Source: Chiloscyllium plagiosum
Taxonomy: Eukaryota
Direction: 5' to 3'
Assembly: GCF_004010195.1 (NCBI RefSeq)
Contig: NC_057717.1
Location: forward strand, 100,081,185-100,145,184
Length of the DNA: 64,000 nt
Shown: in pieces, positions 3,475-60,514 of the stretch
Numbering within the stretch: the first letter of the stretch is position 1
Layout: every line of letters begins with the position of its first letter
The notes under the pieces: generated by a model
What the model saw: only the letters and a program-made list of their open reading frames with translations
The model's database searches: none
Told to the model about the DNA's origin: nothing
Program-made: the position numbers and the translations under genes

Positions 3475-3893
3475 GTATCATAGAATCCCTATATTGTGGA
3501 AGTAGATCATTCAGCCCCTGAGTCGACACTGACCCTCTGAAGAGTATCGAGGAGAAAGTGAGGACTGCAGATGCTGGAGATCAGAGCTGAAAATGTGTTG
3601 CTGGAAAAGCGCAGCAAGTCAGGCAGCATCCAAGGAACAGGAAATCGGTGTTTTGGGCATAAGCCCTGAAGAAACGTCGATTCTCCTGTTCCTTAGATGT
3701 TGCCTGACCTGCTGTGCTTTTCCAGCAACACATTTTCACCTCTGAAGAGTATCTCAAGCAGAACCACCCTATCTACCTAACCTGCACATCTTTGGACTGT
3801 AGGAGGAAACTGGAGTGCCTGGAGGAAATCTATGCAGACACGGAGAGCGTGCTATGAGGCAGCAGTGCTAACCATTGAGCTGCTGTGCTGCCC
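3475..3893 (-). mobile_element. Diverged HE1-type SINE interrupted by a Penelope-derived palindrome
   Basis: SINE tail at 3475-3548 resumes at ~3740 (acctaacctgcacatctttggactg...cagcagtgctaacc). Confidence 0.7.
3549..3738. mobile_element. Penelope-derived palindromic (hairpin) element with 15-bp TSD
   Basis: Arms tgaaaatgtgttgctggaaaag / cttttccagcaacacattttca; direct repeat cctctgaagagtatc at 3534-3548 and 3739-3753. Confidence 0.85.
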
Positions 3894-11820: not shown

Positions 11821-12029
11821 AGGAGAAAGTGAGGACTGCAGATGCTGGAGATCAGAGCTGAAAATGTGTTGCTGGAAAAGCGCAGCAGGTCAGGCAGCAT
11901 CCAAGGAGCAGGAGAATCGACGTTTCGGGCATGAGCCCTCCTGAAGAAGGGCTCATGCCCCAAATGTCGATTCTCCTGCTCCTTGGATGCTGCCTGACCT
12001 GCTGCACTTTTCCAGCAACACATTTTCAG
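11821..12029. mobile_element. Penelope-derived palindromic element with 15-bp TSD
   Basis: ~85-nt inverted arms; direct repeat ctctaccacctggct at 11806-11820 and 12030-12044; nested in a CR1 remnant. Confidence 0.9.
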
Positions 12030-12229
12030 CTCTACCACCTGGCTGGCAGCATGTTCCAGGTATCTACCAACCTCTATGCCTTTCACATAGAGTCATAGAA
12101 ATGTACAGCATGGAATCAGACCCTTCGGTCCAACCTGTCCATGCCGACCAGATATCGCAACCCAATCTAGTCCCACCTGTCAGCACCTGGCCCATATCCC
12201 TCCAAACCTTTCCTATTCATCTCCTTTAA

Positions 12230-23517: not shown

Positions 23518-23752
23518 GTCAGAGACCAAAACAAACTGCAGATGCTGGAATCCAAAGTTGACAAACAGGAGGGCTGGAAGAACACAGCAAGGCAGGCAGC
23601 ATCAGGAGGTAGAGAAGTCAACATTTCAGGTATAATCCTTCAGGATTGGAGGAGATGTAGTCCTGAAGAAGGGTTATATCTGAAATGTTGACTTCTGCAC
23701 CTCCTGATGCTGCCTGCCTTGCTGTGTTCTTCCAGCCTCCTGTTTATCTACT
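23518..23752. mobile_element. Penelope-derived palindromic element, second subfamily
   Basis: Inverted arms ggctggaagaacacagcaaggcaggcagcatcaggaggt / acctcctgatgctgcctgccttgctgtgttcttccagcc; TSD tcagagtga(t/a)gg at 23506-23517 and 23753-23764. Confidence 0.8.
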
Positions 23753-28818: not shown

Positions 28819-28989
28819 CGTGTTGAGTGTGTGGTGTTGGAAAAGCACAGCAGGTCATCCGAGCAGGAGAATCAACGTTTCGGGCGTAAAACCTTCATCA
28901 GTTTATGCCCGAAATGTCGATTCTCCTGCTCCTCGGGTGCAGCCTGACCTGCTGTGCTTTTCCAGCATCACCACTCCTCACTTTCTCCC
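28819..28989. mobile_element. Penelope-derived palindromic element
   Basis: Arms ggaaaagcacagcaggtca / tgacctgctgtgcttttcc; imperfect TSD tgct(t/a)tcacaaat at 28806-28818 and 28990-29002; nested in an older Penelope subfamily copy (~28660-29270). Confidence 0.75.
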
Positions 28990-45864: not shown

Positions 45865-48229
45865 GTAATAAGCGAGGAGAGACCACCTTTACCCACTAAC
45901 TTCAGCATGTTAGACCTTGTCTGTATTAACCTAAAAAGAGCTGCCTCTGGAGAAGGTGGGAAATGAACACGGGTCCTGGCTCAGTAAGCAGGGATACTAC
46001 CACTGTGCCATGAGTGCCCCAACTCCAATGAATTATACTTGTTACTGTGTTTACGAAGGTCTCCCTTTTTTTTTCTGCTGATGAGTGCAGTCAATGGCCA
46101 CGTTAACACGACACATTTAAAATCAGCAGGTGTTCCTCAGCACGGTGTCCGAGTTAAGTTTCATAGAGTCATTGATTCAGAAAGCATGGAAACAGGTTCA
46201 AAACTCTGTTAATCCCAGAGGATTAGCCAGGGAAGCACTATGCAGAGAACTGAGGGTGCTGAAGGTCTGAAACAAAAACAGAAATTGTTGAAGAAACTTA
46301 ACAAGTCTGGTAGTATCTGTGAAGAGAAGTAGAGTTAAAGGTTTGAATCCAGTGACCCTCCTTCAGCAAACACATTGTGGTGTGTACAGTTAAATTGGAG
46401 CTTTGGACAGTTGGGCTTAATGTGCTGCTCTGGAATATTTAATTATTCAGGTTTTTTTTAGAGACCTAAGGGGCAACCTTTTCACACAGAGAGTGGTGCA
46501 GGTATGGAATGAGCTGCCAGAGGAAGTGGTACAATTGCAACATTTAAGAGGCATTTGGATGGGTATATGAATAGGAAGGGTTTGGAGGGATATGGGTCAG
46601 GTGCTGGCTGGTGGGACTAGATTAGTCGGGATATCTGGGTCGGCTTGGATGGAAGGATCTGTTTCCATGCTATACGTCTCTCTGACTCTAATATACTTGC
46701 CAACATCACATCTGTCTATGCATAACTTTCATTTCACATAGGCAAAAGGAACTAGAGAAGACTATTCCCCTCAGACTTATTCCACCATTCAACCAGGTTA
46801 CAGTTGATCTTCTGCATCAGTCTCACTTTCTTGCATTATCTTCATGTCTTTTATGATCACGGATTGAAAATGAAGCAAAGGGAACAGGTTTAGACCATTC
46901 ACTTTCTTTTTGTGCTTTCTCAATCTTTCAAAGTGAATGTGGCTGATCTTCTATGCTGACTCAACTGTGTGACAATCTGTCAATCTCCGTTTTGAATATA
47001 GTCAAGGTGACTATATTCATGTTGAAGGCATGTTGAATTCCAAAAGTCAAGTTCCCCACAAGTGAAGAGCTTTCTCTGTCTAAAGTGGTTGCCTCCTTAT
47101 TGTGAGGTTATGCTACCTAGTTTTTGACTTTCCAACCAAGGATTGTAGAATGTTCACAGCATAGAAGGACATCGTTCCCACATCATGGTTACATTAGTTC
47201 TCTGAAGCACTAGTTGAATTAGTGTCCCTCTTCCACCCCCACCTTTTGTCCTTTAGCCCTGCGCATTCTTCCTTTTTTTTAATTAGGTAACCAATTACCT
47301 TTTTGTATGTCTTAATTGAACCTCTCTTCACCATATTAAGACAGTACATTGTAGATACTTGTCACTCACTATTAATGAGGCACAACTTCAGTATCCAATG
47401 CATAGAGTCCTGTGTGAGTAAATTTTTCTATTTTAATGAGATCATATCACTAAATGCAAAAGCAATACTGGCTTGTTCTAATGAAATCATTCAGTTGTGG
47501 CAACCTAAATATCAGCAATCAGTTTGTTGAGCCTTAGTTTCACTTCTTTGAAAGCAAGTGTGTCCTTCAAAGGGTACAGATGCCAAAGCTGTATTGAGTA
47601 TTCCTGGTGTGCTCTCTCTGGATCCCTTGAAAATAGCAGTAAAATACTTTTTTTGTAAAAGTAAAATGCAGTGGATGTTGGAGTTCTGAAAAATGAAGTG
47701 ATGGAGAAATTCAGGTCTGGTAACACTTGTGGTGTAAGGAATGGTGTCAATGTTTTGAGATCAATTCCTTCTTCCGTGGAAGAGTCCGATTGGGTTGCAA
47801 ATTTTAACAGTTTCTCTCACCTGAGATTCTGTCCGATCTGTGTTTCTTCAGTATTTTCTGTTTTTACATTCCTTTTTCTTGTACCGCCTTGCACTTAATA
47901 TTCTAAGTGCCTTCCAAACTGCCGAAACTTGTGACCAAATTTAATTGATTATTTTTTAATGTCATTCAATAGGGCATATTACTGGGAAAAAAACTTTTAT
48001 CCTTACAGATTTTGCTATCAGAGGGGTTTCTGTCAAATCTGGATTGGAAAAATTTTGTCTTTCTTTTATTAATAGTATACTTCTGAAAGAAATTTATGGG
48101 GTTGTGTAAAAGTAGACTTTAGTGTTTGTCCTACAGAAGGATGTGACCAGCTTTAAGGAATACCGGTTTCATCTTTTGTGTGGTGATTTGACAATAAAAG
48201 GACACTATAGTCATTTTTTCAAGGTTGCC

Positions 48230-49070
48230 CATAGAGAGTCATAGAAATGTACAGCATGGAAACAGACCGTTCGGTCCAAACCATCCGTGCCGACCAGATC
48301 TCCCAACCCAATCTGGTCCCACCTGCCAGCATCCGGCCCATATCCCTCCAAACCCTTCCTGTTCATATACCCATCCAAATGCCTCTTAAATGTTGCAATC
48401 GTACCAGCCTCCTCCACATCCTCTGGTAGCTCATTCCATACACGTACCACCCTCTGCTTGAAAAAATTGCCCCTTTGGTCTCTTTTATATCTTTCCCCTC
48501 TCACCCTAAACCTATGCCCTCTAGTTCTGGACTCTCCGACCCCATGAAAAAAGACTTTGTCTATTTATCCTATCCATGCCCCTCATAATTTTGTAAACCT
48601 CTATACGGTCACCCCTCAACCTCCGCTCCAGAGAAAACAGCCCCATTCTGTTCAGCCTCTCCCTGTAGCTCAGATCCTTCAACCCTGGCAACATCCTTTT
48701 AAATCTTTTCTGAACCCTTTCAAGTTTCACAACATCTTTCCGATAGGAAGGAGACCAGAATTGCACGCAATATTCCAACAGTGGCCTAACCAATGTCCTG
48801 TACAGCTGCAACATGACCTCCCAACTCCTGTACTCAATACTCTGACCAATAAAGGAAAGCATACGAAACGCCGCCTTCACTATCCTATCTACCTGCGATT
48901 CCACTTTCAAGGAGCTATGAACCTGCACTCCAAGATCTCTTTTGTTCAGCAACACTCCCTAGGACCTTTCCATTAAGTGTATAAGTCCTGCTAAGATTTG
49001 TTTTCCCAAAATGCTGCACCTCGCATTTATCTGAATTAAACTCCATCTGCCACTTCTCAGTCCATTGGCC
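48230..49070 (-). mobile_element. Young 5'-truncated CR1/HER1-type LINE
   Basis: ORFs 48521-48955 (RDLGVQVHSSLK...LYRTLVRPLLEYCVQFWSP..LERVQKRF) and 48211-48504 are the CR1 ORF2 C-terminus, followed by a 3' microsatellite-like tail. Confidence 0.92.
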
Positions 49071-49509: not shown

Positions 49510-50755
49510 GTGAGTAAAAATACAAGCTGCGGAGAAGATAAATATGCAAATTAAATGTTTGTATATGTGGCTCAAATAATTTGCTTCTCACAGTGAGGTG
49601 TGTCAATAACTGATAATACAAATGTTGGTGGAATTGGGAATCCCATATGTAGCAGCAAGGAATGGTAAAAGGTTCTGCAGCGATTTCTAATGAGAGTGCA
49701 GTTAAATCTGTTGCAGAAGTTTAGATTGGTATATTTTGTGCTCTGTGCTGAGATGAGCCTGATGAAGCAATCCTTAACATTGCAGCCATCAAACCTATAA
49801 ACATGATGTTTCAGGTTGGGAGGAGTTTAAAAATAAGAATTTTTAATGTAGACATTTTTTTCTGATTTTCTCTTTAAGCTTTAAATAGTGACTTTACAAT
49901 CTCCCAATTGAGGGGTGTTGGCCTTATTTCTATGTATTTGCTTGTCATTAATAGTTCAGCTCATCTTATTTATATGCCATTTCCAGTTGTTATAGCCTTT
50001 GCCAAGAAAACCTAGTTAATATTTCAAATCTTGGCAGAACTCGAAATGTTAACTCTGTTTTCTCTCCACATATGCTGTCAGACCTGCTAATTTCTCCAAC
50101 AGTTTCTGGTTTTGCTTGTGTCAGATCTCCAACATCCGCAGTGCTTTATTTTATTAAATTATGTTCAAGATCCAGTTAGACATATGTGGCTAGACAAAGT
50201 ATACTATTTTGGAGAAGGCTAGCAAACTGCAGTCAAGAAACTGAACAGAATTTATATTTCTATATGTTAATTAGGGGATGTAAGTATAACTTATTACCCA
50301 TCCCTAATTATCCTTCAGAAAGTGGTGGTGAGCTGCTGCCTTGAACTGTTAAAATTCAGGTGTAGGTAAATCCACAATGCTTGTTAGTGAGCAAGTTACA
50401 AGATTATTGATGATGGCAGTTACCCCAATCTATCTTTCAAGTCAAAATCTTATCTTTTTTTATAAAGTGCCTTGGTGTATTTCTTGATGTTTAAAAATGC
50501 TGAAGAAGTTCAGATCATTGCCTTATGTTCAAACTACTCCTGCTTCATGCAACAATGAAAGGAAGTTATTGCAACTGTCAAAGGGGTAGATTGCTAATGG
50601 AATGAGAAAATAAGGTTAGAATTCTGGGAATAAAACATTTTCATTTACCTGCTGTATGAACAAGGGCCAAATTCAGTAGTTTCAAATCCTGCAGGAGCAT
50701 GGATTTAAAGATTAAACATGCAGAAACGTTGTGGCTTCTTCCTTTCCTCATGCAG

Positions 50756-50904
50756 GAAATTGACCCAAGTCTGGGAGTGGCGGAATTACCTGATGAATTT
50801 TTTGAGGAAGATAATATGCTGAGCATGGGTAAGAAGATGATGCAGGAAGCAATGAGCGCATTCCCTGGCATCGATGAAGCTATGAGCTATGCTGAAGTAA
50901 TGAG
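50756..50904 (+). CDS. GET3: GET3 coding exon 3
   Basis: [49 protein letters not shown]; gcag| and |gtaat. Confidence 0.97.
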
Positions 50905-50924
50905 GTAATGTGGGAGGGAACAGA

Positions 50925-51540
50925 ATTTATTGTTGTCGCATATGCCTAAGTACTGTGGAAAGTTCTGTTTTGCGTGCAGTACAGGCAGATTATAATATGC
51001 AAGGACATATTGATCAAAGGGTGTTTAGAGTGGGGCATACAAGGTTATGACTGCACAGGAGCTGCACGGAAGCAAGATCATCGTTTCAGTTTGAAATTAG
51101 AAAGTTCCATTCAGCAGTCTAATAACGGTGGGGAAGAAGCTGTTCTTGAACCTGTTAGGATGTTTGTTTAATCTTCTGTTTGAGACTGATAGTAGAGGTT
51201 GGAAGAGAGTATAACTGGTGTGGTAGGGGTCTTTGATGATGTTGGCCACCTTTCTGCAGCAACGAGAAGTGTATATGGAGTCCGAGGATGGGAGTTTGGC
51301 TTTCGTGATGGTCTAGGCTGTGTTCACAACTTTTTGTAGTTCTTACGGTCCTCAGCAGAGCAATTGCTGTAACAAGCCCTGATGCATCTGGACAGAATGC
51401 TTTCTATGGCGCATCTGTAAATGTTGGTGAGGTTCCTTGTGGAAATTCTGAATCTCCTTAGTCTCCTGAGGAGGAAGAGGTGTTGCTGTGGAGGACCAGG
51501 GCAGTTTGTTGATTATTGTCACTCCTAGGAACTTGATGCT
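50925..51540 (-). mobile_element. LINE 3' fragment, probably Rex1/Babar-like
   Basis: tttatt tail then ggggaagaagctgttcttgaacctg ... gaggaagaggtgttgctgtg resembling fish Rex1 antisense; recognition by eye. Confidence 0.5.
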
Positions 51541-53795
51541 TTCAACAGAAGGGCATCATTTAGCCCCTCAAGCCTGACCTGCCATTTAGTGAGATCGTAA
51601 CGATTCGGTGAGCTAGCGTTATTTATGCACCTTTGCCTCATATCCCTTAATACTTTCACTTCAGCAAAATCAATCAGTCTTGGTTTTTAAACAAGCACTT
51701 AATCTAGCATTGATTACTATTTCCAGAAGGGTGTTCTATCATTTTTGTATGTATGATTTTATTTCTGAAATGTCTGGCTCTAGTTATAAAACTGTGCCCC
51801 CTCATTCTGTACTCTCCAAATCAGGCAGTTCAGTTCTTTCTGCTATTCGATTTTATTTTATATTTTGTACTTTCATCAAATCACCCCTTAATCTAAATTA
51901 AAGGAATTACTTGCACCCAAAAGTAAAGTTGTACAGCATTATTTTAATCAAAAGGTATTCTTTGTGAAATGCTGCACCAATAGGAAAGACAACGGACACT
52001 TCGTTGTCTGATTGGATGATTCTTGGTTGTCAGCCAAACAACTTTGTTTACTAATTTCTAATATGTCTATGATTAATCACTGTGTTCAATGGCAATAAAA
52101 CTGCACAATTTCCATAAAGTTGCTTTGTCTGGTTTTCGCAGAGCAGTGTTGCAAGAACAGGCAGGCACAGATTTAAAGCGATTGGGATTGAGTGGTTGGG
52201 GTTAATCCACAGCCTGAGAGCACAGTGAAAGCTTGTTGAGTCGAGGCTTTAAGATGCAATTGATTATTATCTGAAAACAGAGTGTATAGGGGCGAAAGGT
52301 TGGAAATGGCAATAAGTGCATCATTTCAGAAAGCCAGTACAGACATGATAGGCTGAATTGCTGCCTCCTATGCTGCGCCTATTCTTTAATTCTAGGCTCT
52401 CTAGTCTTGTTTAAATCTGTAACATATAATCCATATGATATGTTTAGTGTTTTTTATTTTTGAAAGGTGAAGTTGATTAGTGTACATGACTTCCCCATGT
52501 AGCTTTGATTGGGCCCAGCATGGAGAACCTGCACCCTGGCTTTCAAGCAGAACTGAGGTGGAACTGCTACATTTATCTTTTGTCCCTTGTGAATGCTTTT
52601 GAGCCTGATGAACTGCAATAATTATAGAATAATCTCATTGGATATGGTAATATCTTTGTGGGAATTTAAAAGGTTCCTATGCAGTTTGCCCCTTGGTGTA
52701 TTGGGAGCACATTAGCAGAAGCTGTTGTCAAGAAGACCTTCGGGAGTGATTAATGATTGAAATGGATTTCCTAATCAAGTAATGGAGAAGAAAACTTTGG
52801 AATTGTTTAAGATGGCTCGTGGGAGTGATTGGGAGACTGTATGAGATAACTGTGACAACATAGCTAAGATAATATCCTTACCTAGAGAGTAGTTACAATC
52901 TGGACTCATTATCTCATGGAGCAGTTGTGATTTTTGGGAAAGCTTTAAGGAATAGAAGCTTGCGAGACAGGGAAAAAGGGTTATGCTGAAAGCGTTAGAT
53001 GTTGGGAGGGGATTCATGTTGAATATAAATACCACTTGGGATGAATAACCTGTTTCTGCACAATAAATTTATGTAATGTTTCAAACTCTTACCAGTTGTG
53101 AAATCTATACTTTGATGGATTTGAAAATATTACCTTTTTAATAATTTTTATATTTGGAGGATCTGAATTAATCCAAATCTAATTTGAAAATGCATTGTTT
53201 GGCGTAGGGGTTTTAATACTGAGGTACTTGCTGATCTGATTGCAAAGTGAAACAGTAGAAAGTAAATCCTATTGCACACTGAATCTCCGACCCATTATTT
53301 ATTTTAATAGATCCAGGTCACAGCCTCTATGAAAAATTTAAAAGATGTATAATCATAATGTAATATTACATCAATTAAGATCCCATTCTCAACATTCTTG
53401 CCTATCAGTGACACAGTGAATTATTGTGGCTTTACTTGCTTGTTGATCTACACTAATAGAGTCAAACAGCATGGAAACAGACCCTTCAGTCCAACTCATC
53501 CATGCCAACCAAGTTTCCCAAACTAAACTAATCCCATTTGCCTGGTTCATATGTAATTTATGTAAAGTGCTTGATACAAACTTAAGCATTGCAACATTGA
53601 GTCTTCACGTGTTGATGCTCTTTAAAAACATGCTTTTATGGAATTCTAATATTGGTGAGGTTCCAAAACCTCTGTCAAATTAAGTTGTTCAAGCATATAA
53701 AATTGGTGGGCACTGGTTTGCAGGGGAACAAGGTTCCAAGAATGCATTTGTTGTAGGTAGTTTTTAATATCCTTTTGTTAAATTGTGTTTTACAG

Positions 53796-53946
53796 GTTGG
53801 TGAAAGGCATGAATTTCTCAGTAGTAGTGTTTGACACAGCACCAACAGGGCATACGTTACGACTTCTGAACTTTCCGACTATCGTTGAGAGGGGACTTGG
53901 GCGACTGATGCAAATTAAAAACCAGATCAGCCCTTTCATCTCCCAG
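53796..53946 (+). CDS. GET3: GET3 coding exon 4
   Basis: Manual translation [50 protein letters not shown] (switch II DTAPTGH); acag| and |gtagc. Confidence 0.97.
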
Positions 53947-54047
53947 GTAGCATAAGCCAATTACTTAATTTGCTCTGGAAAAGTTTAGACAATATATTAA
54001 CAGTAAATTGGTGCTAAGATTGAGATTCTAATTGCTCTGTCAGTGGT

Positions 54048-54570
54048 GGAGAAAGTGAGGTCTGCAGATGCTGGAGATCAAAGTTGAAACTTTATTGCTG
54101 GAACAGCACAGCAGGTCAGGCAGCATCCAGGGAACAGGAGATTCGACGTTTCGGGCACAGGCCCTTCTTCAGGAATGAGCAGAGAGTGTTCAGCAGGAGA
54201 AGATAAAAGGTAGGGATGAGGGACTTGGAGGAGGGGCGTTGGAAATGTGATAGGTGGAAAGAGGTCAAGGTGAGGGTGATAGGTCGGAGTAGGATGGAGG
54301 CGGAGAGGTCAAGAAGAAGACTGCAGGTCAGGAAGGCGGTGCCGGGCTGGAGGGATCCGGCTGAGACAAGGTGGGGGGAGGGGGGATGAAGAAACTGGTG
54401 AAGTCCAAGTTCATCCCCTGCGGTTGGAGGGTTCCCAGTCGGAAGATAAGACGCTCCTCCTCCGACCGTCGGGTTGTTGTGGTTTGGCGGTGGATGAGTC
54501 CAATGACCTGCATATCCTCGGTGGAGTGGGAGGGGGAGTTGAAATGCTGTGCTACAGGTTGGTTGGGTGC
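54048..54570 (-). mobile_element. Young Penelope-like element 3' fragment (GIY-YIG C-terminus plus terminal repeat)
   Basis: Minus-strand translation NQPVAQHFNSPSHSTEDMQVIGLIHRQTTTTRRSEEERLIFRLGTLQPQGMNLDF is typical of Penelope endonuclease ends; CpGs retained. Confidence 0.9.
54141..54176 (-). ncRNA. Putative minimal type I hammerhead ribozyme
   Basis: Minus strand: ATTC-CTGAAGA-A-GGGC-CTGT-GCCC-GAAA-CGTC-GAAT = stem I, CUGANGA, stem II, GAAA, GUC cleavage triplet, stem I'. Confidence 0.7.
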
Positions 54571-55796
54571 AAAATGTGCCTTTTGTAGTACTTTTGAATG
54601 CCAATGGACTAAGAAGAGATTGAAAGTAAAATTGGACAGCATTTCTACTCCTTGTGCTATCCAGTGTTGGCAACATTGTAATGCTTGCAAGTGTAGAATA
54701 TTTTTCCTATGATCAAATAGCCTACCAACAATTACTTCATGTTTACATGTCGGGAACTGCCACTTCAAAATAATAGGAGGTTACTGCACAAGTGGAAGTG
54801 GTAAAGCACAAAGAAAGGAATAAGATCAGAAGGAAGGAAATAGAGCAACATTTATTCATTGTTTATGTATTTTAAGCATAATTTCAAATCAGTCCCTGAG
54901 GCACTGTTTGATTACGGGGTCGCCCAAAAGTTTGTTTGAAGTTGTATGTGTTCATGCTGTAAAACGTGGCCATTGCTTTTGCTTTGAAATCTGCATATGT
55001 TTGACAAATGAGCATAGGAATTAGGAGCAGGAATAGACACTTTGGCCCTTTGAGCCAGCTCTGCAATTCAATAAGATAACATAGATCTGGTTGCTCCACA
55101 TTCCTGCCTAACCCGTCAGTCCCATGCTTTTCAAGAATCTATATAAATCTGCCTTAAAGATATTCAAAGACCCTGCTTTCACCCCCTTTTGAGGGCGAGT
55201 GAATCAAAGATTCATGGTCCTCTGAGAGAGTTTCTCCTGTGCCTGTTTTAAATTGGTAGTCGCTTATTTTTAAATGGTAACCCCAAGCTCTAGATTCCCC
55301 CACAAGAGCATACATCTCTTCCACATCAATCCTGTCAACACCCCTCTGGTTACTATCTGCTTCAATCAAGTTGTATATTGCTCTTCTAAATTGCACAACC
55401 TAAACAGGGGATACTCCATTATACAGCAGGTGGGTTAGGTCTTCTCCCAGTTGACAAACAGCCAGTCTATTCCAGTTAAGCTGTGCAATTGCTACATATG
55501 GAAAGTCTTGATATGCATGTTGGTGAATTACTGGTGTGATAAATCTTCATATTGTTCATAGGTCTTCCATACATAGTGTGCATTTGGATTATTAGCATTT
55601 TAATGTTAAAGCATGTAGTTTTGGAATAGAATGAACTAAGGTACTTTCCATATAAGTGCATTGACCTTTTAAATTAAAAAAAAAATGACTGAGATGTTCC
55701 GCAAACATTTAACTTTAAATAATTGGTCGGTCTGTATCATCTTTCTACTGGTTGTGCGGTCAAACTGTATTTATTTAATCATTGCTAACATTTCAG

Positions 55797-55904
55797 ATGT
55801 GCAGTATGCTTGGACTCGGTGACATGAATGCAGATCAACTTGCTTCAAAGCTAGAAGAAACCTTACCTGTCATTCGTTCAGTCAGTGAACAGTTTAAAGA
55901 CCCG
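55797..55904 (+). CDS. GET3: GET3 coding exon 5
   Basis: [36 protein letters not shown]; ttcag| and |gtaat. Confidence 0.96.
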
Positions 55905-56124
55905 GTAATTATCACTTAATTTTTTTGTTCCCCTTTGTCTAAAGACCAGTACTGACATGAGGATTAATGGTTTAACTGAAGTTGTCATTGACTTGGGAGT
56001 ATTGAGATTAAACTGTAGTGTGAAAGATCATAGCAGTCACTGAACCCTTTTTTCTTTTCAATAAATCTCATGCTAGTCCACCGATTCTGGAATTTGTGAA
56101 CTCTGGATTGCTGGTCCAGTACTA

Positions 56125-56666
56125 CAGAGGAACCTCGATTATCCGAATACCAATTATCCAAAAATCGGATTATCCGAAGGAGATCTAGAGGTCCCGATGG
56201 AAACATTACATTAATGATGCGTTTCCAACACTGATCGCGATTAAACAGGCATCGTCTCCAAATGACTGACTGACCGCTCTCGCTCTCTCTGCCCCCCCCC
56301 ACCGGAGTTCTACACAGGGGTGTACTCTTAAACCCCCCTTCCCCAGATAATCTCTCCAACATTGTCCTGTACAGGGCAAAGGTGGAACCTGTCAAAAAGG
56401 TGTGTGTGTGCGCGCAATTTGGAGACTTACTCTACAAAGGCAACTGCAGCAGTCTTACTGTTGGGTGTCCAGTCCAGTCCAGCTGCCCCGGGGGGAGGAG
56501 GAGGGAGCAGCGGGGCTTTTTGTGCTTTTGCAGTCTCATGAACGGGGAGCAGACTTTTAAAAAGCTCCGAACCCCAGAGGAAAGGCATTTAATCGATTAA
56601 CTGAATAATTGATTATTCGAGCGAAATAGTGCCTGCCATCACATTTGGATAATCGAGGTTCCCCTG
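56125..56666. mobile_element. Tigger/pogo-like MITE (non-autonomous DNA transposon)
   Basis: 24-bp TIRs CAGAGGAACCTCGATTATCCGAAT / ATTTGGATAATCGAGGTTCCCCTG (22/24); TA on both sides; subterminal GATTATCCGA repeats. Confidence 0.9.
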
Positions 56667-57023
56667 TATACCTCCAAAGCAGCGATATTCTAATAATTGG
56701 CATTACCTGGACAAATTGAATGAATTGCTAATTTGTGCTTTAAATTTATCATTCTGGGAGGCAATCACTTCTGATGGTGCAAAAGTCTCCCAGTACTGCA
56801 CAGAAGCAAAGGCTGTTCTGAAATCCTGGTATGGAGCCATAGCCACCTTGAGTCATGGATACTTTTGCTACTGAATGAGACAACAAGAGGAATACTGGAG
56901 AAAGTTAGGACAAAGTGAAAGGAAGTGTGAAATCAAAGCTGACGTTTTTGCTGCAGTTGCCACTGTTGGATGAGTTCCAAGATGACAGTTATCTACTAAA
57001 TCTGTTTTCTGGCCTTTTCACAG

Positions 57024-57224
57024 GAACAGACCACCTTCATCTGTGTTTGCATTGCTGAGTTTCTGTCCTTATATGAGACTGAACGACTAATTCAAGAGTT
57101 GGCCAAGTGTAAGATTGACAGCCACAACATAATAGTAAACCAGCTAGTATTTCCAGACCCTGGGGAGAAACCATGTAAGATGTGTGAGGCTCGACACAAA
57201 ATCCAATCCAAATATCTAGACCAG
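57024..57224 (+). CDS. GET3: GET3 coding exon 6
   Basis: [67 protein letters not shown] with CxC and Zn-binding CxxC; acag| and |gtaat. Confidence 0.97.
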
Positions 57225-58338
57225 GTAATGTTATAATGGCATAAACTTTCTATTTTGTTTGTATTTTGCACAGAAAATGTGACCAGCACCATATGACCAG
57301 CAATATTAGCCTCAGGCTTGAATTGGATCAGCTATTTGTTTAATGCACTCTGGGTTTGAGCTCATTTTGGATTATCCATTTGAAATTAAGAGATAGGAAC
57401 ACTAATGTTAGCTTACCGCTATGCCAGCATCTTCCTATGTTCCTTTCTAATTTTCACTGCTGCTGTCTGCACCTCCAAGGTCAGTGCATGCCAGCGATTT
57501 CTGGAACTGAAAGTCATTGATTCCTCACACTGGATGTGTGCCAGACCCTCTGAGTAGCTGTCCAAGCACACCGCTTCAAGGAACCATTCATGATCATGTC
57601 AGTAGTAATTCACAGGTTCAGGCTAATGTCTTGAGGGCAAAAACAGAAATTGCTGGAGAAGCTCAGCAGGTCTGATTGCATGTATGGAGACAAAGCAAAG
57701 TTCATGTTTTGAGTTCTGTGACCCTCTTATTTGAATGTTTTGATGCCATGGGTTCAGATCCCACCACTGTTGCTGGTGAGATTAACAAACCGATTCATTA
57801 ATAAATTTGGAATAGAAAGCTGGTGTCTGTAATGGTGATCATGAAAGTTATCAGCAGTTTTTAATAAAGCACCTTGTTCACTTAAGGAAATCTGCTATTC
57901 TTATCTGGTTTGGTCTACATGTGCCTTGAGATGCAGAAATGTAGATGGCTCTTCCTTGTATTCAGATCAAGGCCATCAGGGATGAGCAATAAATCCTGGG
58001 CTTGCCAACACTACCCACATCAAATACTTTTTAGAAAAAGGAGTTGGCTGTTCAGTTTCTTCAGTGTGTTTGATTATTTAGTCAGATTGTAGCTGTTTTG
58101 TAGTTCAACTCTATTAATCCCTTCTTTGACCTATTCATCTGATGTCCTTGCTTTCAAAATCCCTTTTGAAAATTTCAAATAACTCAGAGAAGGAGTTTCA
58201 AGTTACCTCACCCATCTGTTGCAAACAAATGCCCCAAGATCTTTGAAGGTGGTTCCTCAGACTTGTTTTGAGATTGTGGGTGATTTGTGTCAGAATGTGG
58301 TCTCTTTAAATTTTTTTGCATGGCTATATGTGTAAGGT

Positions 58339-58581
58339 GCTGAAAATGTGTTGCTGGAAAAGCGCAGCAGGTCAGGCAGCATCCAAGGAACAGGAGAATC
58401 GACATTTCGGGCATAAGCCCTTCTTCAGGAATGTCTTCAGGAAGTCTTTCCTCATTCCTGAAGAAGGGCTTATGCCCGAAACGTCGATTCTCCTGTTCCT
58501 TGGATGCTGCCTGACCTGCGCTTTTCCAGCAAGACATTTTCAGCTCTGATCTCCAGCATCTGCAGTCCTCACTTTCTCCTC
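58339..58581. mobile_element. Penelope-derived palindromic element with two opposed hammerhead motifs and 15-bp TSD
   Basis: ~95-nt inverted arms; direct repeat ctatatgtgtaaggt at 58324-58338 and 58582-58596; hammerhead cores at 58458-58485 (+) and 58401-58428 (-). Confidence 0.92.
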
Positions 58582-58842
58582 CTATATGTGTAAGGTAACT
58601 TAAAGGCACCGACATGTTTGCGGTCTGCATGGAGGCTTTCTGGTTTCTGAGCGGCTGCACAGCTGAGAGAGAACAGTAATTGTGTTTTCTTCTTATGAAT
58701 TTATAATAGTTTCTCAGTAACTATTGCTCACCTGGCGAGCGCATATCCAATTTTCCCGCTAAGGGGTAGCTCATCATTTGCACCTCAAGTGCTCTTTTTG
58801 TGAATAAGATTACTTTAGCTTGTCTGTCTGTTTTTCTTTCAG

Positions 58843-58971
58843 ATGGAGGATTTGTATGAAGATTTTCACATTGTGAAGCTCCCATTGTTACCTCATGAAG
58901 TCAGGGGCACTGACAAAGTCAATACTTTCTCTAAACTCCTGCTTGAGCCCTACAAGGCACCTAGTAAATGA
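58843..58971 (+). CDS. GET3: GET3 coding exon 7 (stop)
   Basis: [42 protein letters not shown]. Total CDS 1038 nt = 345 aa. Confidence 0.97.
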
Positions 58972-60514
58972 ACAGACTTCCCTCATTCCGTTTCAAAACT
59001 GAGGCAAAGAGATCCAAGATTTGTAATTTATTAACACTGTTTGTAGGAAGGAGTTGGGGAGGGGATGCCTGGATGTTATTTATTGTTTTTGATCAATTTT
59101 TGATTTCTGGTTATTGTAACTTTTAAGGAGGTGATTTTGCATTGCCTATATGTGATCTCAAGACGTTGTGTCAAAGTTGTAGAATAGAGCATTATGTATC
59201 TACAGCTTTATTCTGTGATTAACCACTTTAAAAGAAAATGGCTTTTGAGCTTCAAACTCTTCCCCTCCTCTTAATGATTTTCTGTCCTCTCTCACGTGAC
59301 CCTATAGTCTTGAGGACTCAATGCATTTTCTGTAATCCTCCTTCCAGTAGTGGTTCAGTTGCGGTTGCTGCTTCTCCAGTTGAACACCTCAAAATGGAAG
59401 TGATACTATAGGAGCAACGATTATATTAGGAAGCAACAGTGACCCCTTTCCTACTCCCCACCTCTGCCCCATTCCTTTCCACAGATGCTGCTACCTAAAA
59501 ATAGTGTTACGAAACTGGCTCATTAAACACTTTGACACAAGCAAGCTACTCTCATAACTCCAGGTTTCATCTCAGCAGCAATTGAAGTTGTTAATTATTT
59601 ATGTGAATGGGAGCCAGCTGCCCAATATTAGGCAATAAGTTCACATTTTTGAGACCAATTTAACATTTCATATATCCTACAAGTGTTTCTTTAGAGTCTT
59701 CCTTATTTCACTCACCTATCCATTAGGTGAGCACACCAAATACATCTTCTGTCTCTTTCAGAACATGGGTTATATGAGAAAGCTACTCTCATCCTGACCA
59801 CTGACAAAATACTTAAAACGGTGCATTAGGTTTAAAAACTTATCTGGCATTGCTTGTTCTGGTGTTGTCAGGCATCAGATTTGATTTAACACTTACATAA
59901 GAGTTTACCTGTGTTGATATGCTGCTTTGAATGCGCTCCGTGCTTTATGGGATCTTTTTCCAATTTGGAAAATATCTTTATGAAGAGAATGGGCTATGAA
60001 GAACCTATGCACACTTGGTATTTTTTGAAACCTGTCCCTTTTGTTGCATGGTCTGTTTGCAGATTCCCTTGTAGCCGTTGTTTTCTTTAACACTGTTCAT
60101 GGTCAGACTCTGGACCAGATGGGAGTTGGTCTGGAGCCTCTTCTCTGAATTTGGGGTGAGGAGTGGGATTGGACTGTTTATACTTTCTGACTGAATCTTT
60201 GCATCTGTTAAATGGCTCACCTAGTTTAACATAATGAGCCATTATGGAGCAGGAAGATCAAATGGTGGGCAAAGTACAGAGGTCAAAGTGGTGACGTTTG
60301 CCAGGGCAGGAGTTGACAAGACTAGCTATGGTTCCTGCTGCTTGTCCTTGTCTGTATTCTCCTGGGCTGATGAGTATTTGGAAATTGCTTGTTGGCCTGA
60401 CACCTGAAAGTGCCCACTTAGTACAGAAGGCTGTCTAAACTGCGCATGGTGTCCATCTGACAATCAACACCTTTTATTTGAATGGGGGCATTTATAATGT
60501 GGGGGAAGAAATTC

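What the first reader, a model, noticed from the sequence alone, without database searches (positions are those of the whole stretch)
54141..54176. Complete minimal hammerhead ribozyme motif at the end of a young Penelope fragment in GET3 intron 4
Seen: the minus strand reads ATTC CTGAAGA A GGGC CTGT GCCC GAAA CGTC GAAT. This gives a perfect 4-bp stem I (ATTC/GAAT), the CUGANGA box, a 4-bp stem II, GAAA and a GUC cleavage triplet. Stem III is reduced to the palindrome ACGT, and there is one extra A between A9 and G10.1. The motif lies downstream of, and on the same strand as, the GIY-YIG remnant. Established: Penelope-like elements carry minimal type I hammerheads thought to cleave as dimers through a palindromic stem III, and an extra A after A9 is tolerated in a natural viroid hammerhead (CChMVd). 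Inference: this is a potentially active self-cleaving RNA, antisense to GET3.
Basis: partly seen in the sequence, partly recalled or inferred. Interest (0 to 1): 0.8.

Follow-up and report, generated by a model that had tools for sequence, protein, structure and literature searches.

The report
Common Penelope retrotransposon hammerhead in intron
This is a real but ordinary tiny hammerhead ribozyme motif at the end of a recent jumping-gene fragment, one of about 8,500 identical copies in this genome, and because it is alone and on the strand opposite to the GET3 gene it likely does nothing to that gene.

Summary
The motif is there as described (54141-54176, minus strand; predicted cut after 54145), beyond chance (2 hits in the window, 0.03 per shuffle). 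It is the minimal type I hammerhead that Penelope-like elements carry in their terminal repeats (PMC4209133); the extra A is a family hallmark. It sits in a 521-bp, 5'-truncated copy, over 99% identical to others, of an element with a Neptune-type linker, in GET3 intron 4. The exact 36-mer occurs 8,512 times. Across subfamilies no core or stem II column changes; N7 and loop II do. Cleavage is untested: no monomer stem III can form, the nearest same-strand partner is 4.3 kb away, and GET3 pre-mRNA carries the non-catalytic strand. Genomic copies keep the site intact: 45 of 84 start at the first bases of stem I, 1 of 84 at the cut. An apparent excess of junctions at the cut failed its control (63 versus 231 at a non-cleaved box). 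Most novel reading left: the ribozyme is the very 5' end of the element's RNA. The scan noted this family before (189 notes, at least 16 genomes). New member of a known kind; low interest.

The parts
54048..54568 (-). 5'-truncated Penelope-like element copy (521 bp), 3-4 bp duplicated or microhomologous at the ends
   Evidence: BLAST to 29 other loci at 98.9-99.8% over the same span; shared 3' end and variable 5' ends; junction letters
54328..54568 (-). C-terminal remnant of the RT/GIY-YIG reading frame, with its stop codon
   Evidence: Frame 54328..54780; same C-terminus ends the 673-aa RVT_1 + GIY-YIG frame of L032
54177..54327 (-). Pyrimidine-rich 3' untranslated stretch between stop codon and hammerhead
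   Evidence: Sequence; same in L032
54141..54176 (-). Minimal type I hammerhead motif; predicted cut between 54145 and 54144
   Evidence: 8,512 exact copies
54146..54149 (-). Palindrome ACGT (A15.1, C15.2, G16.2, U16.1) that would form stem III between two copies
   Evidence: Sequence; dimer model evaluated
54172..54178 (-). Initiator-like TCATTCC whose A is the first base of stem I; peak of 5' ends of genomic copies (inferred RNA start)
   Evidence: 45 of 84 copies start at -35..-28, peak -32/-31; 104 RNA reads leave the element at 54176 into mixed flanks; match to the initiator consensus is from recall
54082..54144 (-). pLTR part after the cut site (+1..+63), with an ATG at 54126 and AATAAA at 54096-54091; first common 3' end of copies
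   Evidence: 3' end histogram; 33 RNA reads with a poly(T) loose end at 54082; frame
54048..54081 (-). Optional 34-bp tail (+64..+97); second common 3' end of copies
   Evidence: 3' ends in two clusters, 37 of 84 at +55..+68 and 40 of 84 at +92..+100; tail described in PMC11167929 and PMC8557442
53947..55796 (+). GET3 (ArsA family) intron 4, host of the insertion, which starts about 100 bp after the donor
   Evidence: Spliced joint GT..AG in contigs of 2 of 4 runs; exon positions
58397..58432 (-). Nearest same-strand hammerhead relative (4,256 nt upstream), with AUGU instead of ACGU and a U.U pair in stem I; one arm of an inverted pair
58454..58489 (+). Other arm of the inverted pair: intact core on the GET3-sense strand in intron 6

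Best explanation
The motif is the minimal hammerhead of the terminal repeat of a young, very abundant Penelope-like retrotransposon, copied into GET3 intron 4 with its cut site intact, and at this locus it is likely inert cargo. Shown: sequence, family, copy number, position, strand. Inferred: in the parent element's RNA two such motifs, or one motif helped by the element's protein, would pair through the ACGU palindrome and cut after GUC; reverse transcription likely starts inside the RNA at +63 or +97 past that site and runs through the uncut ribozyme, stopping most often at the first base of stem I (the likely RNA 5' end) and sometimes, as here, further upstream. This copy has no cis partner nearby and lies antisense to GET3, so the GET3 pre-mRNA cannot be cut by it.
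For: All minimal-hammerhead traits of PMC4209133 are present. Parent has RT, a C-x4-C-x2-C linker and GIY-YIG in one frame (linker criterion). 8,512 exact copies, 53,273 with a 22-nt piece of the tail. Among subfamilies clustered on tail columns only, 0 of 11 core and 0 of 8 stem II columns differ, while N7 and 1 of 4 loop II columns do. 3' ends in two clusters 34-35 bp apart and 42 of 84 copies with an inverted arm, as for the anole element, whose reverse transcription starts inside the RNA and uses uncut template. Element sequence continues past +97 in 4 of 221 copies. Only 1 of 84 copies starts at the cut site. No CUGANGA on the GET3-sense strand.
Against: No cleavage was measured. Covariation is thin: stem II shows no compensatory change between subfamilies and the third stem I pair is U.U in 134 of 275 copies. 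Copy-level conservation of the core (0.87-0.91) is hardly above that of the tail (0.86-0.89), though the tail was the selection anchor. No full-length element with both repeats was found among 20 RT-bearing loci, many with assembly gaps, so the tandem template is inferred. An antisense transcript over this locus was not excluded.
Confidence: 0.85

Rival explanations
1. The motif is kept mainly as a promoter and protein-binding signal at the RNA's 5' end (initiator plus downstream element, template recognition) and hardly cleaves in this family.
For: Copies start at an initiator-like sequence overlapping stem I. Drosophila Penelope has an internal promoter with Inr and DPE. Hammerhead mutants did not affect insertion in vitro and no reads ended at the cut in anole RNA. 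No pile of read ends at the cut here. Stem I pair 3 is mismatched in most copies.
Against: Variation falls on exactly the positions a hammerhead leaves free (N7, loop II) and on none of 11 core positions. The anole motif does cleave with protein, and C3G/G8C mutants behave as in hammerheads. The two roles do not exclude each other.
Confidence: 0.2
2. This locus makes an antisense RNA that self-cleaves, in trans with transcripts of other copies or in cis with the copy at 58401, and so influences GET3.
For: The copy has a perfect 4-bp stem I, which with all other criteria holds for only 33 of 275 copies. Family RNA is abundant on both strands in one run, so trans partners exist. A second same-strand motif lies 4,256 nt upstream.
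Against: 0 of 58 reads over 54217 carry this copy's private letter. The modelled dimer (-13.1 kcal/mol) is no more stable than two monomers (-14.2) and less than a competing duplex (-18.3) (tertiary contacts not modelled). The partner has AUGU and a U.U pair and sits in a long inverted repeat. The insert is recent, with no sign of being kept for the host.
Confidence: 0.05
3. The ribozyme cuts the element's RNA in the germ line often enough to leave copies that start exactly at the cut site.
For: Among 99 copies selected for lacking the GAAA box, 29 start at +1 against 1-12 at each other position from -4 to +5 (19 at the +6 anchor edge). Of those joined to unrelated flank, by eye 5 start at +1 against 0-3 elsewhere (rows).
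Against: 20 of the 29 are inverted junctions and 13 use the stem I complementarity as microhomology. Genome-wide control: the same inverted arm joins the non-cleaved GAAA box (3-nt microhomology) 231 times and the cut site (2-nt) 63 times, about what one more matching base would give. 1 of 84 unselected copies starts at +1.
Confidence: 0.15
4. Chance match without ribozyme ancestry.
For: Folding z-score is unremarkable and Rfam finds no hammerhead family.
Against: 2 hits against 0.03 per shuffle; position, architecture and extra nucleotide all match the published PLE motif.
Confidence: 0.01

Closest known systems
Minimal type I hammerheads (min-HHR) in pLTRs of metazoan Penelope-like elements (Cervera and de la Pena 2014, PMC4209133)
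   Same: No helix III, palindromic 15.2/16.2, nucleotide between 9 and 10.1, G10.1-C11.1, short helix I, mostly single motifs on truncated copies, pairs on opposite strands, thousands per genome.
   Different: Helix II is 4 bp, shorter than the 7-8 bp given for Schistosoma. 8,512 identical copies of one variant, whereas that paper stresses high variability (about 4,000 and 9,000 motifs in coelacanth and Xenopus in total). No shark entry in the supplement files searched (file 1 could not be searched).
Anole Poseidon element PAc (Frangieh et al. 2024, PMC11167929)
   Same: Hammerhead at the pLTR, two internal start sites of reverse transcription that bound a 30-40 bp tail, uncut RNA as template, no read ends at the cut.
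   Different: PAc is of the Penelope/Poseidon clade and its ORF starts at stem II. Here the parent has the Cys linker of Neptune/Nematis type, and the ATG at +19 opens only 42 codons in the copies that continue. Copy ends lie at +63/+97; one PAc site lies 85-92 nt past its cut (my subtraction from the paper's numbers).
Non-LTR retrozymes of animals (Li et al. 2026, 10.64898/2026.07.22.740005)
   Same: Type I hammerhead derived from PLE pLTRs; reported in one chondrichthyan genome.
   Different: Retrozymes are tandem repeats with a hammerhead in each unit; this is a single truncated copy that still carries endonuclease coding sequence.

Membership tests
Minimal type I hammerhead of PLEs | Core C3 U4 G5 A6 N7 G8 A9, G12 A13 A14, A15.1-U16.1, H17 | tested here: met
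Minimal type I hammerhead of PLEs | Helix II with G10.1-C11.1 and one unpaired nucleotide between 9 and 10.1 | tested here: met
   criterion
Minimal type I hammerhead of PLEs | No helix III; palindromic 15.2/16.2 | tested here: met
   ACGT at 54149-54146; C/G in 173 of 275 copies, most others CpG-type changes
Minimal type I hammerhead of PLEs | Short helix I closing the motif | tested here: met
   4 bp in this copy; third pair U.U in 134 of 275 relatives
Minimal type I hammerhead of PLEs | Core conserved and stems covarying across families | tested here: inconclusive
   0 of 11 core columns differ between subfamilies, but no compensatory change in stem II and mixed pairs at stem I pair 3
Minimal type I hammerhead of PLEs | Site-specific self-cleavage as dimer or with protein | not testable with these tools
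   Needs a bench assay; RNA reads and genomic junctions gave no support
EN+ Penelope-like element | Single frame with RT followed by GIY-YIG endonuclease | tested here: met
   L032, 673 aa: RVT_1 E 1.1e-08; GIY-YIG E 5.6e-04, under the curated cut-off
EN+ Penelope-like element | 5' truncation, inverted 5' copies, optional 30-40 bp tail | tested here: met
EN+ Penelope-like element | Full-length copy between two direct pLTRs | tested here: inconclusive
   0 of 20 RT-bearing loci showed it; 15 of the 20 hold assembly gaps. Short direct arrays exist (L033, L034)
Neptune clade | CX2-5CxxC linker between RT and endonuclease (shared with Nematis) | tested here: met
   C-x4-C-x2-C read from L032 (L033 frame); criterion
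Neptune clade | Placement by RT phylogeny | not tested
   No reference PLE sequences were fetched
Non-LTR retrozyme | Tandem units, each with a hammerhead, no coding sequence | tested here: not met
   Single copy with endonuclease remnant

The most novel reading that the evidence does not exclude
In this family the hammerhead is the very 5' end of the element's RNA: transcription starts at an initiator whose +1 is the first base of stem I, so a cut would remove a 32-nt capped leader and take the RNA out of translation or copying, rather than release unit-length genomes. Only uncut RNA is copied, which is why about half of all copies are 95-130 bp pieces that begin at stem I. The ribozyme would be a self-limiting switch of the element.
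Probability: 0.3. Interest if true: 0.5.

Novelty: new member of a known kind. Interest (0 to 1): 0.14.

Why it matters
As a single locus it matters little: a recent insertion of a described motif, on the wrong strand to cut GET3 RNA. The family is useful because the role of Penelope hammerheads is open (passage), and tens of thousands of young copies record where reverse transcription starts and stops. They say that uncut RNA is the normal template and suggest that the ribozyme sits at the RNA's 5' end, which 5'-end sequencing of gonad RNA could test directly.

Tried and rejected
Rfam: no hammerhead family at E <= 10 in 50000-60000, only hairpin (miRNA-model) matches to the inverted pair. Cleavage footprint in DNA: 29 of 99 at +1 looked like support but the matched control went the other way, 63 against 231; rejected for inverted junctions, open and weak for flank-joined copies. 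Cap-derived G in front of stem I: 10 G of 40 lone copies (p 0.32), 10 of 22 after dropping templated C (p 0.044), confounded by target microhomology and by older subfamilies with other upstream letters; inconclusive. ATG at +19 as ORF start: stops after 42 codons in the copies that continue; rejected as the main start. RNA runs: no RNA holder listed on record; X20 gave 0 reads, no test; X19 showed no place where many molecules begin or end, but a poly(A)-primed single-cell library with about 2% read is a poor test. A DNA-like contig reaches only 30 letters into the insert, under the tool's 31-letter rule, so presence in another individual is not counted. Full-length element: not found in 20 loci. 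Lunse et al. 2017 is not held; seen only as cited in PMC6765202. Literature on 5' ends at the hammerhead: the search returned 0 papers and one search returned 1 review whose only 'shark' is the hammerhead simile; subscription papers are not covered.

Full report
Observation. The minus strand at 54176-54141 reads as stated, with C17 at 54145. The 36-mer folds into stems I and II (z -0.81). A strict type I descriptor gives 2 hits in the window and 0.03 per shuffle over 200 shuffles; a loose family pattern gives 11, and a profile built from related copies gives 17. Rfam reports no hammerhead family here. The host is GET3 on the plus strand (Pfam ArsA_ATPase on 3 of 3 exon frames scanned; exon motifs); contigs of 2 of 4 runs splice 53946 to 55797. 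The motif is antisense in intron 4.

What it belongs to. The insert spans 54568 to 54048 (521 bp) and is 98.9-99.8% identical to 29 other loci. These share the 3' end and differ in 5' extent. One longer relative, L032, has a 673-aa frame with RVT_1 (E 1.1e-08) and a weak GIY-YIG match (E 5.6e-04, under the cut-off) that ends in the same C-terminus as the window remnant, with a C-x4-C-x2-C linker, the mark of Neptune and Nematis elements (PMC8557442 passages). No tree was built, so 'Neptune-type' rests on the linker alone. The exact 36-mer occurs 8,512 times in the 3.56-Gb genome and a 22-nt tail piece 53,273 times, reversed controls 0. The label 'shark' comes from earlier notes and my recall of such repeats; I did not test it.

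Comparison with the literature. PMC4209133 (text parts 1-2 of 4; supplement search, file 1 not searchable) describes this motif: no helix III, palindromic 15.2/16.2, a nucleotide between 9 and 10.1, mostly single motifs on truncated elements, inactive as monomer and weak as dimer. PMC11167929 (parts 1-2 of 4) shows for an anole element that reverse transcription starts inside the RNA at two sites bounding the tail, that uncut RNA is the main template, that the hammerhead cleaves only with the element's protein, and that no RNA-seq reads end at the cut. The 2026 preprint on retrozymes (part 1 of 5 and passages) includes one chondrichthyan; its supplements are closed and may name this family. 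PMC2377424, PMC3846280, PMC6155905 and PMC6765202 were seen as passages. Lunse et al. 2017 was not held.

Conservation. In 275 copies spanning -32 to +41 relative to the cut, drawn from 1.3 Mb of fetched loci that were chosen around young copies, majority frequency is 0.91 in the core and 0.89 in the tail, so copy-level data do not separate them; the tail was also the anchor. With subfamilies clustered on tail columns only (6 clusters of 5 or more at one threshold, 4 at another), 0 of 11 core and 0 of 8 stem II columns differ, N7 and 1 of 4 loop II columns do, and stem I differs in 0 or 2 of 8. The 9 of 37 differing tail columns are inflated by the clustering and are no fair control. Stem II shows no compensatory change. 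The third pair of stem I is U.U in 134, U-A in 59, A-U in 17, G.U in 16 and G-C in 7 of 275. The window's subfamily is among the 33 of 275 that meet every criterion with a perfect stem I.

How copies are made. Of 84 copies taken from the first 100 listed tail matches (first 4.2 Mb of contig C1; the rest were not fetched or lay at locus edges), 45 start at -35 to -28 with a peak at -32/-31, the first bases of stem I; 23 start at -27 to -11, 10 further upstream, 4 at -10 to -1, 1 at +1 and 1 at +2. Among 40 without an inverted arm, 22 start at -35 to -28. 3' ends cluster at +55 to +68 (37) and +92 to +100 (40); 42 of 84 have an inverted arm. In the seven closely spaced inverted pairs picked for (L039-L044, L048) one arm ends near +63 and the other at +97. 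Element sequence continues past +97 in 4 of 221 copies, which fits a start of reverse transcription inside the RNA. The 5' peak lies on TCATTCC, which fits the initiator consensus as I recall it; Drosophila Penelope has an internal promoter. That this is the RNA start is inference. In one RNA run 104 reads leave the element at 54176 into mixed flanks, which repeats the DNA boundary and does not show an RNA end; 33 reads carry a poly(T) loose end at 54082 (+63), 9 nt after AATAAA, from an unknown number of loci.

Does it cut in vivo? I selected copies lacking the GAAA box (731 in the genome) and classified 99 of the first 100 listed: 29 start at +1, against 1-12 at other positions from -4 to +5 and 19 at the +6 anchor edge. 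But 20 of the 29 are inverted junctions, and 13 join through stem I complementarity. The genome-wide control went against cleavage: the same inverted arm joins the cut site 63 times (2-nt microhomology) and the non-cleaved GAAA box 231 times (3-nt), though the latter pattern spans CpG sites that decay. Flank-joined copies give by eye 5 at +1 against 0-3 elsewhere, too few to carry a claim. RNA reads showed no pile of ends at the site, a weak test.

This locus. A monomer cannot close stem III. The modelled dimer (-13.1 kcal/mol) gains nothing over two monomers (-14.2) and a competing duplex is lower (-18.3). The nearest same-strand relative is 4,256 nt upstream, has AUGU and a U.U pair, and is one arm of an inverted repeat. 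The GET3-sense strand of the insert has no CUGANGA. At 54217 this copy has a private letter and 0 of 58 reads carry it.

Verdict. Observation confirmed; interpretation partly supported. It is a member of the PLE minimal hammerheads by every sequence criterion tested; activity is untested and likely needs a partner or protein. New member of a known kind, interest 0.14. The scan has 189 notes on such elements in at least 16 genomes; I checked their shared claims on uncut template and fixed starts on my own sample.

Noticed in passing
window 58339-58580: Head-to-head pair of hammerhead-bearing ends in GET3 intron 6; the plus arm (58454-58489) has an intact core on the GET3-sense strand, but is paired with its inverted partner in a hairpin of about 120 nt. 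This copy, not the one flagged, is in the pre-mRNA.
   Followed up: partly
window 3585-3741, 11856-12031, 23567-23742, 28823-28972: Four more inverted pairs of the same family; 17 family hits in 64 kb in all.
   Followed up: partly
window 23663-23693 (+): Second strict-descriptor hit, an older variant with stem I AGTC/GACT, a compensatory form of the window copy's ATTC/GAAT.
   Followed up: partly
window 54082 (element +63): 33 RNA reads carry a poly(T) loose end here, 9 nt after AATAAA at 54096-54091, suggesting that family copies supply a poly(A) site at the same position as one common DNA end.
   Followed up: partly
L034:2939-3803 and L033:1297-1934: Short direct arrays of hammerhead-bearing ends (224-bp spacing in L034) that continue past +97 into further element sequence; these are places where a cis dimer could form.
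   Followed up: partly
L033 and L034, after +97: The ATG at +19 opens 42 codons; a second ATG about 135 nt past the cut, in another frame, may be the true ORF start (read by eye).
   Followed up: no
window 48211-48958 (-): Two overlapping frames that resemble the end of a CR1-type LINE reverse transcriptase (from recall; the one frame scanned gave no Pfam hit).
   Followed up: no
L051, L070, L112, L137, L154: Copies in which the hammerhead core between stem I strands is skipped by short jumps (rows); could be reverse transcriptase skipping the stem II hairpin.
   Followed up: no
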